Below, piece after piece: positions 41,401-44,400 of a DNA stretch of 64,000 nucleotides. Origin of the DNA: Escherichia coli (lineage in GTDB: Bacteria > Pseudomonadota > Gammaproteobacteria > Enterobacterales > Enterobacteriaceae); NCBI RefSeq assembly GCF_044324785.1, contig NZ_CP172127.1; one strand, given 5' to 3'. The position numbers are program-made. How positions within the stretch are numbered: the stretch's first letter is position 1; each line of letters begins with the position of its first letter.

Positions 41401-44400
41401 ACATCGATCTGGCGCTGGATGCTGCGCACAAAGTGAAAGATAAATGGGCGCACACCTCGGTGCAGGATCGTGCGGCGATTCTGTTTAAGATTGCCGATCG
41501 AATGGAACAAAACCTCGAGCTGTTAGCGACGGCTGAAACCTGGGATAACGGCAAACCCATTCGCGAAACCAGTGCTGCCGACGTGCCGCTGGCGATTGAC
41601 CATTTTCGCTATTTCGCTTCGTGTATTCGGGCGCAGGAAGGCGGTATCAGTGAAGTTGATAGCGAAACCGTGGCCTATCATTTCCATGAACCGTTAGGCG
41701 TGGTGGGGCAGATTATCCCGTGGAACTTCCCGCTGCTGATGGCGAGCTGGAAAATGGCTCCCGCGCTGGCGGCGGGCAACTGTGTGGTGCTGAAACCCGC
41801 ACGTCTTACCCCGCTTTCTGTACTGCTGCTAATGGAAATCGTCGGTGATTTACTGCCGCCGGGCGTGGTGAACGTGGTTAACGGCGCTGGTGGGGAAATT
41901 GGCGAATATCTGGCGACCTCGAAACGCATCGCCAAAGTGGCGTTTACCGGCTCAACGGAAGTGGGCCAACAAATTATGCAGTACGCCACGCAAAATATTA
42001 TTCCGGTAACCCTGGAACTGGGCGGCAAGTCGCCAAATATCTTCTTTGCTGATGTGATGGATGAAGAAGATGCCTTTTTCGATAAAGCGCTGGAAGGCTT
42101 TGCACTGTTTGCCTTTAACCAGGGCGAAGTTTGCACCTGTCCAAGCCGTGCTTTAGTGCAGGAGTCTATCTACGAACGCTTTATGGAACGCGCCATCCGC
42201 CGTGTCGAAAGCATTCGCAGCGGTAACCCACTCGACAGCGTGACGCAAATGGGTGCGCAGGTTTCTCACGGGCAACTGGAAACCATCCTCAATTACATTG
42301 ATATCGGCAAAAAAGAGGGCGCAGACGTGCTCACCGGCGGGCGGCGCAAGCTGCTGGAAGGCGAACTGAAAGACGGCTACTACCTCGAACCGACTATTTT
42401 GTTTGGTCAGAACAATATGCGGGTGTTCCAGGAGGAGATATTTGGCCCGGTGCTGGCGGTGACCACCTTCAAAACGATGGAAGAAGCGCTGGAGCTGGCG
42501 AACGATACGCAATATGGCCTGGGCGCGGGTGTCTGGAGCCGCAACGGTAATCTGGCCTATAAGATGGGGCGCGGCATTCAGGCTGGGCGCGTGTGGACCA
42601 ACTGTTATCATGCCTACCCGGCACACGCAGCGTTTGGCGGCTACAAACAGTCGGGCATCGGACGCGAAACCCATAAGATGATGCTTGAGCATTACCAGCA
42701 AACCAAGTGCCTGCTGGTGAGCTACTCGGATAAACCGTTGGGGCTGTTCTGATGTAAGAAGCTGGTCGCATCGGGTATTCATTGCCTGATGCGACGCTTA
42801 CGCGTCTTATCATGCCTACGGGGACCTGACCGTAGGCCGGATAAGGCGTACACGCCGCATCCGGCATAAACAAAGCGCACGGTGTTACAATTTACGTTTT
42901 AAACCTACGTGCGCAATAACCCAGACTACGCCAACAGAAGTGCGTTTCTGGGGCGTGTTTTGCCAGGAGTTTAATCTCGCGTTTCGATGGTGAGCGGGCG
43001 AACCAGGCCATAAACCACCATTGGCGTTCCGAGGCCAATCAGCAATAAACGGTAGATAATTGAAGGTTTAATACGCTTAATCTGCATTGTGGATGTTTTA
43101 CGGTTTTTATTCATAAATTTGGTCAATAGTTACATTATTTCAATATGATAAGCTTCGACCTGTTGAAAAGCCAGGCACACACTTCAGAAAGTATATAAAA
43201 AACCATATGTCGTTATATAAATAAGGAAATTGCACTGCATCATGGCATTTAATAATATGCGTTAATTGTTCTTTTTTATATTCTCTGAGAAAAATATGTT
43301 CCTGGATTATTTTGCACTGGGAGTGCTTATTTTTGTATTTCTGGTGATCTTCTATGGGATTATTATTTTACATGATATTCCCTACCTGATTGCTAAAAAA
43401 CGTAATCATCCACATGCCGACGCCATTCATGTTGCTGGTTGGGTAAGTCTTTTTACGTTACATGTTATCTGGCCATTTTTGTGGATTTGGGCCACGCTTT
43501 ACCGCCCGGAGCGGGGATGGGGAATGCAAAACCATGACTCCTCCGTTGTGCAACTACAACAGCGTATTGCCGGGCTGGAGAAACAGCTCGCCGACATCAA
43601 ATCCTCTTCTGCCGAGTAATACTTATGGATTTACTGATTATTTTGACCTATGTGGCTTTCGCATGGGCAATGTTTAAGATCTTTAAAATTCCTGTAAATA
43701 AATGGACCATTCCCACAGCGGCCCTGGGAGGCATATTTATTGTCAGCGGTCTAATTCTGTTAATGAACTATAACCATCCGTATACCTTTAAAGCGCAAAA
43801 AGCGGTTATTTCTATTCCTGTTGTCCCACAGGTGACAGGCGTGGTGATCGAAGTGACGGACAAGAAAAATACGCTGATTAAAAAAGGTGAGGTGCTATTT
43901 CGACTGGACCCGACGCGTTATCAGGCGCGGGTGGATCGGCTGATGGCGGATATCGTTACCGCAGAACATAAACAGCGGGCGTTGGGCGCAGAGTTAGATG
44001 AGATGGCGGCGAATACTCAGCAGGCAAAGGCCACGCGGGATAAATTCGCTAAAGAGTATCAGCGTTACGCACGCGGCAGTCAGGCGAAAGTAAACCCGTT
44101 TTCAGAACGCGATATCGATGTGGCGCGGCAAAATTATCTGGCGCAGGAAGCCTCCATGAAGTCATCGGCGGCGGAACAAAAACAGATCCAGAGCCAGCTG
44201 GATAGCCTGGTGTTGGGTGAACATTCTCAAATCGCCAGCCTGAAAGCACAGCTCGCGGAAGCAAAATATAACCTTGAGCAGACGATAGTGCGTGCGCCGA
44301 GCGATGGTTATGTGACCCAGGTACTGATTCGTCCGGGTACCTATGCCGCGTCGCTGCCGCTACGTCCGGTGATGGTGTTTATACCCGATCAGAAACGACA

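What the first reader, a model, noticed from the sequence alone, without database searches (positions are those of the whole stretch)
42971..43087. Possible 38-aa small hydrophobic ORF between aldB and yiaW
The minus strand encodes MQIKRIKPSIIYRLLLIGLGTPMVVYGLVRPLTIETRD from an ATG at 43085-43087 to a TAA, below the ORF-track length cut-off. Composition fits a single-pass small membrane protein, but there is no obvious Shine-Dalgarno sequence, so it may be chance.
Basis: seen in the sequence. Interest (0 to 1): 0.3.

Follow-up and report, generated by a model that had tools for sequence, protein, structure and literature searches.

The report
Internally deleted membrane-protein gene relic
The small ORF is real, but it is what remains of a conserved 104-codon inner-membrane protein gene after an in-frame 171-bp deletion removed its conserved core, and it now evolves like non-coding DNA, so it is most likely a gene relic and not a new small protein.

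Summary
The ORF exists as described (window 42971-43087, minus strand, exact translation, no Shine-Dalgarno). The proposed ATG is not its real start. The frame stays open to ATG 43112-43114 (47 aa), which NCBI's PGAP annotates as "hypothetical protein" in many E. coli genomes. That ATG is orthologous to the start of 103-104-aa genes in other Escherichia, Citrobacter amalonaticus and Franconibacter.

The 47-aa ORF is this 104-aa gene with codons 38-94 removed in frame, between short direct repeats at 43001-43009. The lost segment held 8 of the 9 near-invariant residues of the parent family, a ~100-aa membrane-protein family with no Pfam or NCBIfam model.

Intact copies are under strong purifying selection (pN/pS 0.10-0.15). 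The truncated E. coli alleles give 0.75, variable sites are spread 6/6/8 over codon positions, and diversity equals that of flanking non-coding DNA.

Of 5,426 complete E. coli genomes, 3,805 carry the truncated form, 28 carry the deleted 171-bp segment (the full-length form), and the rest lack the ORF. A hicB antitoxin 3' remnant abuts the ORF's stop codon.

Verdict: a pseudogene-like relic of low interest. Translation could not be tested here.

The parts
42971..43114 (-). 47-codon ORF (MNKNRKTSTMQIKRIKPSIIYRLLLIGLGTPMVVYGLVRPLTIETRD*). It is the relic of a 104-codon membrane-protein gene and retains codons 1-37 and 95-104 of the parent.
   Evidence: sequence; PGAP hypothetical protein at these coordinates; homology to the 104-aa gene in two blocks, residues 1-38 and 91-104
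43112..43114 (-). Ancestral start codon (ATG), orthologous to the start of the full-length genes. No Shine-Dalgarno sequence precedes it in Escherichia.
   Evidence: pN/pS of the 23 codons upstream is 0.3-1.1, against 0.10-0.15 downstream. PGAP aa from this ATG in E. coli 6409.
43085..43087 (-). It is internal codon 10 (Met/Val polymorphism), not a conserved start.
   Evidence: GTA in 7 of 12 E. coli alleles; Val in full-length orthologues
43001..43009 (.). Deletion junction. A single copy of the short repeat (plus strand AACCAGGCC; minus strand GGC CTG GTT) is left after loss of 171 bp (57 codons) between two copies, TAC GGy CTG GTT TGC and TAC AGC CTG GTy CGC.
42903..42974 (+). 3' remnant of a hicB antitoxin gene (TYVRNNPDYANRSAFLG----RVLPGV*, with a 12-nt internal deletion). 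It is convergent with the relic, and the two stop codons overlap in TTAA.
   Evidence: tblastn E 3e-10; blastn 84-85% to intact hicB in L005/L006
42783..42871 (.). REP/BIME-type palindromic repeats between the aldB stop and the hicB remnant
   Evidence: sub-threshold naRNA4/REP-like Rfam hits; this part of the query has multiple copies per genome
43172..43199 (+). Probable yiaWV promoter (CAGGCA-16-TATAAA here; CAGACA-17-TATAAA in K-12), divergent from the relic, in an H-NS-bound spacer
   Evidence: Shimada et al. 2014, PMC3946193; coordinates
43296..43619 (+). yiaW (DUF3302), the divergent neighbour
41214..42752 (+). aldB, the convergent neighbour

Best explanation
The ORF is the in-frame-deleted remnant of a conserved ~104-aa inner-membrane protein gene that lies downstream of, and convergent with, aldB in Enterobacteriaceae.

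Shown: in the lineage leading to most E. coli, 171 bp (codons 38-94) between two short direct repeats were lost. This fused the N-terminal tail and most of transmembrane helix 1 to the last ten codons. The result is a 47-codon ORF that keeps the ancestral start and stop codons. The deletion removed the beta-hairpin WN motif, the second long helix and the GLW.YS motif, which together hold 8 of the 9 near-invariant positions of the family. After the deletion the purifying selection seen on intact copies was lost.

Inferred: the mechanism of the deletion was slippage or illegitimate recombination between the repeats. The remnant has no protein function and persists only because it is young and short. 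The neighbouring hicAB module decayed as well, leaving a 72-nt hicB tail.
For: (1) Homology and deletion.
- In alignment A4, E. whittamii and Escherichia sp. E1V33 have 171 extra bases exactly at window ~43004/43005.
- The same frame there encodes a 104-aa protein.
- BLASTP of the 47-aa ORF against the 104-aa protein gives two blocks, residues 1-38 (87% identity) and 91-104 (86%).
- The repeat sequences are shown.

(2) The long form is ancestral.
- Syntenic orthologues of 104 and 103 aa lie between aldB and yiaW in Citrobacter amalonaticus, and next to aldB in Franconibacter.
- An exhaustive HMMER search finds 166 clusters of ~100-aa proteins that match over the full length.
- The near-invariant residues are G27, G40, G46, N53, G59, G88, L89, W90 and S93. 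All but G27 lie in the deleted segment.

(3) Selection.
- Intact copies have pN/pS 0.10-0.15.
- The same retained codons give 0.09-0.16 in intact lineages, against a mean of 0.75 among 12 truncated alleles.
- Those alleles have 20 variable sites at codon positions 6/6/8, counted as 14 nonsynonymous and 7 synonymous changes.
- Fisher's exact test, intact against truncated, gives p=0.014. An omega of 0.12 is rejected (p=1.5e-4). Neutrality is not rejected (p=0.25).
- Nucleotide diversity in the ORF is 0.033. It is 0.021 in the hicB remnant, 0.017 in the REP region and 0.025 in the yiaW promoter region.

(4) Independent decay of the same gene elsewhere.
- Escherichia sp. MOD1-EC7003 lost the 5' half.
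- About 29% of E. coli keep only ~30 nt of it, next to hicAB-GH127.
- In strain PSS-16 an IS1 element abuts its last 54 nt.
- A frameshifted allele is L098. Frameshifted or read-through protein variants are P0036, P0037, P0018, P0034 and P0026.

(5) Other points.
- There is no SD in Escherichia, whereas orthologues have CAGGAG or AAGGGA.
- The ORF is not annotated in the curated MG1655 record.
- It was not found in the small-ORF supplements that could be searched.
Against: - The ORF is intact in 50 of the 51 sampled sequences carrying the deletion. It aligns without gaps over 144 nt in every listed row, and 3,805 complete genomes match over at least 80% of it.
- The start codon, the frame and a marginal transmembrane segment are retained (Kyte-Doolittle 19-residue maximum 1.69).
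- pN/pS for codons 13-47 of the truncated alleles is 0.50. This does not differ significantly from 1, but it is also compatible with weak residual constraint.
- Only 12 distinct alleles, carrying about 21 substitution events, underlie the selection tests.
- No transcription or translation data could be examined, so expression is not excluded.
- Intactness is weak evidence either way. Only 4% of point mutations in this ORF create a stop codon, so about 0.8 nonsense events are expected among 20.
Confidence: 0.8

Rival explanations
1. The 47-aa product is still made and works as a single-pass membrane microprotein. It would be a small protein born by gene shrinkage, for example acting through the retained helix 1 on a partner of the parent protein or on the divergent yiaWV products. 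On this reading the deletion allele rose to near-fixation in E. coli because it is useful.
For: - The start codon, frame and hydrophobic helix are retained, and the ORF is intact in almost all carriers.
- The deletion allele outnumbers the full-length allele 3,805 to 28.
- pN/pS for codons 13-47 is 0.50, below 1.
- PGAP predicts it as a CDS.
Against: - Overall pN/pS is 0.75, with variable sites uniform over codon positions.
- Diversity equals that of adjacent non-coding DNA and of the hicB pseudogene fragment.
- Radical singleton changes occur in the helix (G27V, L37R, P40L).
- 8 of the 9 near-invariant family residues are gone.
- There is no SD.
- The spacer is reported as H-NS-bound.
- The ORF is absent from the curated K-12 annotation and from the searchable small-ORF tables.
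- The same gene has been destroyed in other ways in related lineages.
Confidence: 0.12
2. The real gene is the 38-aa ORF from ATG 43085-43087.
For: An ATG is present at that position in the window and in O157-type alleles.
Against: - The codon is GTA in 7 of the 12 distinct E. coli alleles, including K-12, and Val in all full-length orthologues.
- No SD precedes it.
- The orthologous start codon is 27 nt upstream.
Confidence: 0.02
3. It is a chance ORF in AT-rich intergenic DNA with no coding ancestry.
For: - 45% of shuffled spacers contain an ATG-ORF of at least 47 codons.
- There is no SD, and no homologue outside E. coli was found with the 51-aa query.
Against: There is clear two-block homology to a 104-aa gene that is under purifying selection and has syntenic orthologues in three genera.
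Confidence: 0.01
4. It is a type-I-toxin-like small hydrophobic peptide, or another component functionally tied to the adjacent hicAB toxin-antitoxin module.
For: - It is a small hydrophobic ORF convergent with hicB, with overlapping stop codons.
Against: - The parent gene occurs without hicAB in Citrobacter, Franconibacter and E. coli 6409.
- hicAB is itself reduced to a 72-nt remnant in the window.
- There is no PADLOC or PHROG hit, and no Rfam antisense RNA.
Confidence: 0.02

Closest known systems
Full-length 104-aa hypothetical inner-membrane protein found between aldB and yiaW (WP_001064340.1 in E. coli 6409; 127-aa gene calls P0039/P0041; Citrobacter amalonaticus P0190, named 'Inner membrane protein' in UniRef; Franconibacter P0204)
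   Same: Same locus, strand, start codon and stop codon. Residues 1-38 are 87% identical and the last 14 residues 86% identical.
   Different: The window ORF lacks codons 38-94. These encode the end of helix 1, the beta-hairpin with the W-N motif, and the long second helix with the G-L-W..Y-S motif. It has also lost the purifying selection.
PGAP 'hypothetical protein' WP_001039208.1 / WP_001066080.1, annotated in many E. coli RefSeq genomes
   Same: It is the same ORF: 42971-43114 corresponds exactly to the annotated CDS in strains VCSW7 and gw25. The product is 96% (VCSW7) and 82% (gw25 and K-12) identical over the 51-aa query.
   Different: The annotation treats it as an ordinary CDS. It is not called in the curated MG1655 record or in the O157:H7 records checked.
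Experimentally validated E. coli small membrane proteins of 50 aa or fewer (the class found by tagging and initiation-site ribosome profiling; own knowledge, and Weaver et al. preprint 10.1101/511675)
   Same: Size, one hydrophobic helix, intergenic location.
   Different: Those proteins have direct evidence of translation. Here none could be found, and the ORF derives from a recent deletion in a larger gene.
Gene remnants at the same locus: the hicB 3' fragment in the window and the ysaD pseudogene in K-12
   Same: All are leftovers of genes that are intact in other Escherichia genomes, in a region with several alternative structures.
   Different: The relic kept an open frame with its start and stop codons because its deletion was a multiple of three. 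The link between ysaD and the alternative island was not examined.
Type I toxins (Hok, Ldr, Ibs, TisB class; own knowledge)
   Same: Short, hydrophobic, single helix.
   Different: There is no antisense RNA, no family match, and a different origin.

Membership tests
Unnamed ~100-aa inner-membrane protein family (the parent gene) | Significant sequence homology to family members | tested here: met
   BLASTP E 8e-22 (residues 1-38) and 7e-07 (last 14 residues) against the E. coli full-length protein. Truncated E. coli proteins appear as partial hits in the HMMER search.
Unnamed ~100-aa inner-membrane protein family (the parent gene) | Full-length architecture: helix 17-44, beta-hairpin 50-57, long helix 59-95; about 100 aa | tested here: not met
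   Only 47 aa remain and codons 38-94 are absent.
Unnamed ~100-aa inner-membrane protein family (the parent gene) | Near-invariant residues G27, G40, G46, N53, G59, G88, L89, W90, S93 | tested here: not met
   Only G27 is retained, and it is itself polymorphic (G27V). The other eight lie in the deleted segment.
Unnamed ~100-aa inner-membrane protein family (the parent gene) | Syntenic position downstream of and convergent with aldB | tested here: met
   Same position as in Citrobacter amalonaticus, Franconibacter and full-length Escherichia.
Functional protein-coding small ORF | Purifying selection (excess of synonymous change, third-position bias) | tested here: not met
   pN/pS is 0.75. Variable sites fall 6/6/8 by codon position. 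Neutrality is not rejected (p=0.25), while the omega of 0.12 seen in intact copies is rejected (p=1.5e-4).
Functional protein-coding small ORF | Conservation of the ORF beyond the species | tested here: not met
   The 47-aa form was found only in E. coli. Relatives have the 104-aa form, a different deletion, or nothing.
Functional protein-coding small ORF | Recognisable translation-initiation signal | tested here: not met
   No SD lies upstream of either ATG, whereas orthologues in other genera have CAGGAG or AAGGGA. SD-less initiation is possible, so this is only weak evidence.
Functional protein-coding small ORF | Evidence of transcription and translation (ribosome profiling, tagging) | not testable with these tools
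   No read data are available. The supplements that could be searched had no entry for the locus, but one was cut when stored and others are not held.
Pseudogene / gene relic | Derived from a longer intact homologue by a disabling lesion | tested here: met
   A 171-bp internal deletion removed the conserved core.
Pseudogene / gene relic | Relaxed selection relative to intact copies | tested here: met
   Fisher's exact test p=0.014 (all retained codons) and p=0.033 (codons 13-47). Diversity equals that of the flanks.
Type I toxin-antitoxin toxin | Cognate antisense RNA and a known toxin family signature | tested here: not met
   Rfam finds only REP-like sub-threshold hits. There is no Pfam, NCBIfam or PADLOC match.

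The most novel reading that the evidence does not exclude
The in-frame deletion did not kill the gene but converted a multi-helix membrane protein into an expressed 47-aa single-helix microprotein. This allele then replaced the full-length allele in about 99% of the E. coli genomes that carry the ORF. It would be a documented, within-species case of a small protein arising by gene shrinkage.
Probability: 0.1. Interest if true: 0.45.

Novelty: new member of a known kind. Interest (0 to 1): 0.15.

Why it matters
The main value is for annotation. An ORF that PGAP labels "hypothetical protein" in many of the E. coli genomes that carry it, and that any small-protein screen would flag as a hydrophobic candidate, is best read as a relic of a larger gene. 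A dN/dS comparison against the intact allele shows this directly.

Two secondary points follow. The aldB-yiaW junction is a well-resolved example of stepwise gene decay that is still polymorphic within one species: intact, internally deleted, 5'-deleted, replaced and IS-truncated states all exist. The parent gene also belongs to a conserved ~100-aa membrane-protein family with no model in Pfam, NCBIfam, PHROGs or PADLOC. Strains with the intact allele (for example E. coli 6409) would allow that family to be studied.

Tried and rejected
- Rfam scan of 42000-44000: only sub-threshold REP-like naRNA4 hits, and no sRNA or riboswitch overlapping the ORF.
- Promoter and terminator scan: nothing above the shuffle expectation. 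The terminator-like hairpin inside the ORF (43039-43020) is probably chance.
- Pfam, NCBIfam, PHROGs and PADLOC on the 47-aa and 104-aa proteins and on 41 family members: no credible family. One UniRef label, 'DUF3566', on a Franconibacter member was not reproduced by hmmscan.
- PDB by sequence profile and by Foldseek with the AF2 model: no significant match. The afdb50 library was unavailable.
- My first idea was that the ORF is a chimera spanning a recombination junction between hicB-flank DNA and yiaW-flank DNA. This was replaced once the full-length genes showed that the 'junction' is an internal deletion.
- Two independent deletion events, suggested by the R39/C39 polymorphism at the junction: no consistent linkage with the neighbouring GGC/GGT codon, so a simple SNP or recombination suffices.
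- Literature: no mention of the peptide, its accession numbers or the locus as a small ORF. Several key supplements are not held or were cut, so this absence is weak evidence.
- Genomic context of distant family members (P0052, P0056): no recurrent neighbour that suggests a function.
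Full report
**1. Observation.**
No Shine-Dalgarno-like sequence precedes it.

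The frame does not start there. It stays open upstream to TTG 43126 (51 aa) and contains ATG 43112-43114 (47 aa), with an in-frame TAA just beyond.

NCBI's PGAP pipeline annotates the 47-codon version as "hypothetical protein" in many E. coli genomes. Examples are WP_001039208.1 in strain VCSW7, the window's closest match at 99.1%, and WP_001066080.1 in strain gw25. The ORF is not annotated in the curated MG1655 record or in the O157:H7 strain OK1 record.

The size of the ORF alone is not remarkable. 45% of shuffles of the 543-bp aldB-yiaW spacer contain an ATG-ORF of at least 47 codons.

**2. The proposed start is not conserved.**
Among 12 distinct E. coli alleles it is ATG in 5 and GTA in 7. 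ATG 43112-43114 is present in all of them.

**3. What the ORF is.**
A search with the 51-aa product found relatives only in E. coli. I then fetched yiaW loci from other species and aligned the spacer.

- E. whittamii and Escherichia sp. E1V33 carry 171 additional bases exactly at window ~43004/43005.
- There the same frame, from the same ATG to the same stop, encodes 104 aa: MNNTSNTSAVQLKRIKPSIIYRLLLIGLGTPLVIYGLVCGILGMFGYDQVRWNDTVIHGLLALPAGLLAGLSVSVFLTVMIGTIACFGLWLYSLVRPLTIETRD.
- The window ORF matches this protein in two blocks, residues 1-38 and 91-104.
- The missing 57 codons lie between two short direct repeats, TAC GGy CTG GTT TGC and TAC AGC CTG GTy CGC. One copy survives at 43001-43009.

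The ORF is therefore an in-frame internal-deletion derivative of a larger gene.

**4. The long form is ancestral and is a real gene.**
- Syntenic orthologues exist in Citrobacter amalonaticus/farmeri (104 aa, 55% identity, between aldB and yiaW). They also exist in Franconibacter (103 aa, convergent with aldB, no yiaWVUT). Both start at the orthologous ATG and have SD-like sequences.
- An exhaustive HMMER search of 1.84 billion representative proteins found 166 clusters (E<=1e-3) of ~100-aa proteins matching over essentially the whole length.
- Their alignment has near-invariant G27, G40, G46, N53, G59, G88, L89, W90 and S93. Eight of these nine lie in the segment deleted in E. coli.
- AlphaFold2 with this alignment (mean pLDDT 82) gives helix 17-44, a beta-hairpin at 50-57 and a long helix at 59-95.
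- The family has no Pfam, NCBIfam, PHROG, PADLOC or PDB counterpart.
- Among three Escherichia lineages with intact copies, pN/pS is 0.10-0.15 for the 104 codons. It is 0.3-1.1 for the 23 codons upstream, which fixes the start at the MNN... ATG. PGAP calls the same 104-aa CDS in E. coli 6409.

**5. Selection after the deletion.**
To avoid biasing the sample towards conserved coding sequence, I collected loci with a DNA pattern placed outside the ORF, in the yiaW promoter (52 metagenome contigs), and added the genome loci. This gave 50 sequences with an intact truncated ORF, falling into 12 distinct alleles, and one frameshifted allele.

- The 12 alleles have 20 variable sites, at codon positions 6/6/8. 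I count these as 14 nonsynonymous and 7 synonymous changes.
- Mean pairwise pN/pS is 0.75 overall, 1.16 for codons 1-12 and 0.50 for codons 13-47. For the same codons in intact lineages the values are 0.09-0.16 overall and 0.00-0.05 for codons 13-47.
- Fisher's exact test, intact against truncated, gives p=0.014 for all retained codons and p=0.033 for codons 13-47. An omega of 0.12 is rejected (p=1.5e-4) and neutrality is not (p=0.25).
- Nucleotide diversity in the ORF (0.033; codons 13-47 0.023) matches the adjacent hicB fragment (0.021), the REP region (0.017) and the yiaW promoter region (0.025).
- Intactness of the frame says little. Only 4% of point mutations would create a stop codon, so about 0.8 nonsense events are expected among 20.

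**6. Population picture.**
Of 5,426 complete E. coli genomes:
- 3,805 match at least 80% of the 144-nt truncated ORF.
- 28 carry the deleted 171-bp segment, that is the intact gene.
- The remainder lack the ORF.

The yiaW and yiaV flanks of the full-length strains examined are 96-98.5% identical to those of K-12, O157 and the window. That is within the E. coli range, so this is a polymorphism within the species.

In the genomes of the remainder that I examined, aldB is followed by (hicAB)-GH127-MFS-AraC instead of yiaWVUT. Where hicAB is present, only ~30 nt of the gene's 3' end survive beside hicB.

Other independent lesions of the same gene:
- Escherichia sp. MOD1-EC7003 lost the 5' half, including the start codon.
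- In strain PSS-16 an IS1 element abuts the last 54 nt.
- Rare frameshift and read-through variants exist.

**7. Surroundings.**
The plus strand at 42903-42974 is a 3' remnant of the hicB antitoxin gene: TYVRNNPDYANRSAFLG----RVLPGV*, tblastn E 3e-10, with a 12-nt deletion. Its stop codon overlaps the relic's stop in the palindrome TTAA. Genomes with the complete ancestral arrangement, aldB-hicA-hicB-[104-aa gene]-yiaW-yiaV-yiaU-yiaT-GH127, exist. REP elements lie between aldB and the hicB remnant.

The divergent yiaWV promoter reported by genomic SELEX (CAGACA-17-TATAAA), in an H-NS-bound spacer (Shimada et al. 2014, PMC3946193), corresponds to window 43172-43199.

**8. Expression.**
I could not test transcription or translation. 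The supplements I could search (Stringer et al. preprint, cut when stored; Fesenko et al.; smORFer) and the main texts I searched (Weaver et al. preprint; a 2025 stress-induced small-protein preprint) do not list this locus. Other key supplements are not held. This is weak negative evidence.

**9. Conclusion.**
- Shown: the ORF is real. It is not a chance ORF. It is the internally deleted remnant of a conserved 104-aa membrane-protein gene. It has lost nearly all the conserved residues of that family. Its substitution pattern is statistically distinct from intact copies and indistinguishable from neutral.
- Inferred: it no longer has a protein function.
- Residual possibility, about 0.1: the 47-aa single-helix product is still made and used.

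The finding is ordinary in kind, a young pseudogene that happens to stay in frame. It is useful mainly as an annotation correction and as a pointer to an uncharacterised parent family.

Noticed in passing
window 42903-42974 (+): A 72-nt 3' remnant of a hicB antitoxin gene, with a 12-nt internal deletion, abuts the ORF. Intact hicA-hicB occupies this position in other Escherichia and E. coli genomes (L005, L006, L010, L089).
   Followed up: yes
window ~42753-45732; loci L005-L008, L089: The region downstream of aldB has alternative structures in E. coli. One is yiaW-yiaV-yiaU-yiaT, as in the window and K-12. Another is (hicAB)-GH127 glycosidase-MFS transporter-AraC regulator. Some genomes carry both sets in tandem, which looks ancestral. 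Whether the K-12 pseudogene ysaD is a leftover of the second set was not examined.
   Followed up: partly
window 39811-41106 (+): A 431-aa Fic/DOC-family gene (Pfam PF02661, E 7e-20) sits between yiaY (38530-39678) and aldB. K-12 has only a 164-bp spacer there. E. coli SCU-115 also has a Fic-family gene directly upstream of aldB.
   Followed up: partly
loci L010 777-1091(-), L011 2004-2318(-), L147 2390-2704, L155-L159; proteins P0050-P0189: The parent of the relic belongs to a family of ~100-aa membrane proteins (166 clusters at E<=1e-3). The family has conserved W-N and G-L-W..Y-S motifs, a confident AF2 model, and no Pfam, NCBIfam, PHROG, PADLOC or PDB counterpart. In Enterobacteriaceae it lies convergent with aldB. 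Its function is unknown.
   Followed up: partly
window 43191-43234 (+): A ~44-bp block upstream of yiaW is the only part of the spacer conserved (80-90%) from Escherichia to Citrobacter and Pseudocitrobacter. It overlaps the reported yiaWV -10 region and may hold a regulator site, for example for the LysR-type YiaU.
   Followed up: no
window 43115-43190: The 76 bp immediately upstream of the relic's start codon are the most polymorphic part of the spacer among E. coli (pi 0.078, against 0.02-0.03 around it). In K-12-type alleles the reading frame extends through this stretch, giving 54-90-aa gene calls. In the window a TAA at 43130-43132 closes it.
   Followed up: partly
locus L009 2241-2369(-) (Escherichia sp. 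MOD1-EC7003): The same gene decayed independently here. The 5' half and start codon are deleted, leaving only the C-terminal 42 codons, although YiaW is 99% identical to the window's.
   Followed up: yes
locus L148 (E. coli PSS-16): An IS1A element lies next to the last 54 nt of the ORF, and yiaW through part of yiaL is missing. This is an IS-associated deletion reaching into this locus.
   Followed up: no
window 42998-43000 (codon 39 of the ORF): There is an Arg/Cys polymorphism (CGC/TGC) exactly at the deletion junction. It mirrors the difference between the two parental repeat copies (LVC-G and LVR-P). It could reflect different crossover points, but linkage with neighbouring sites is inconsistent.
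   Followed up: partly
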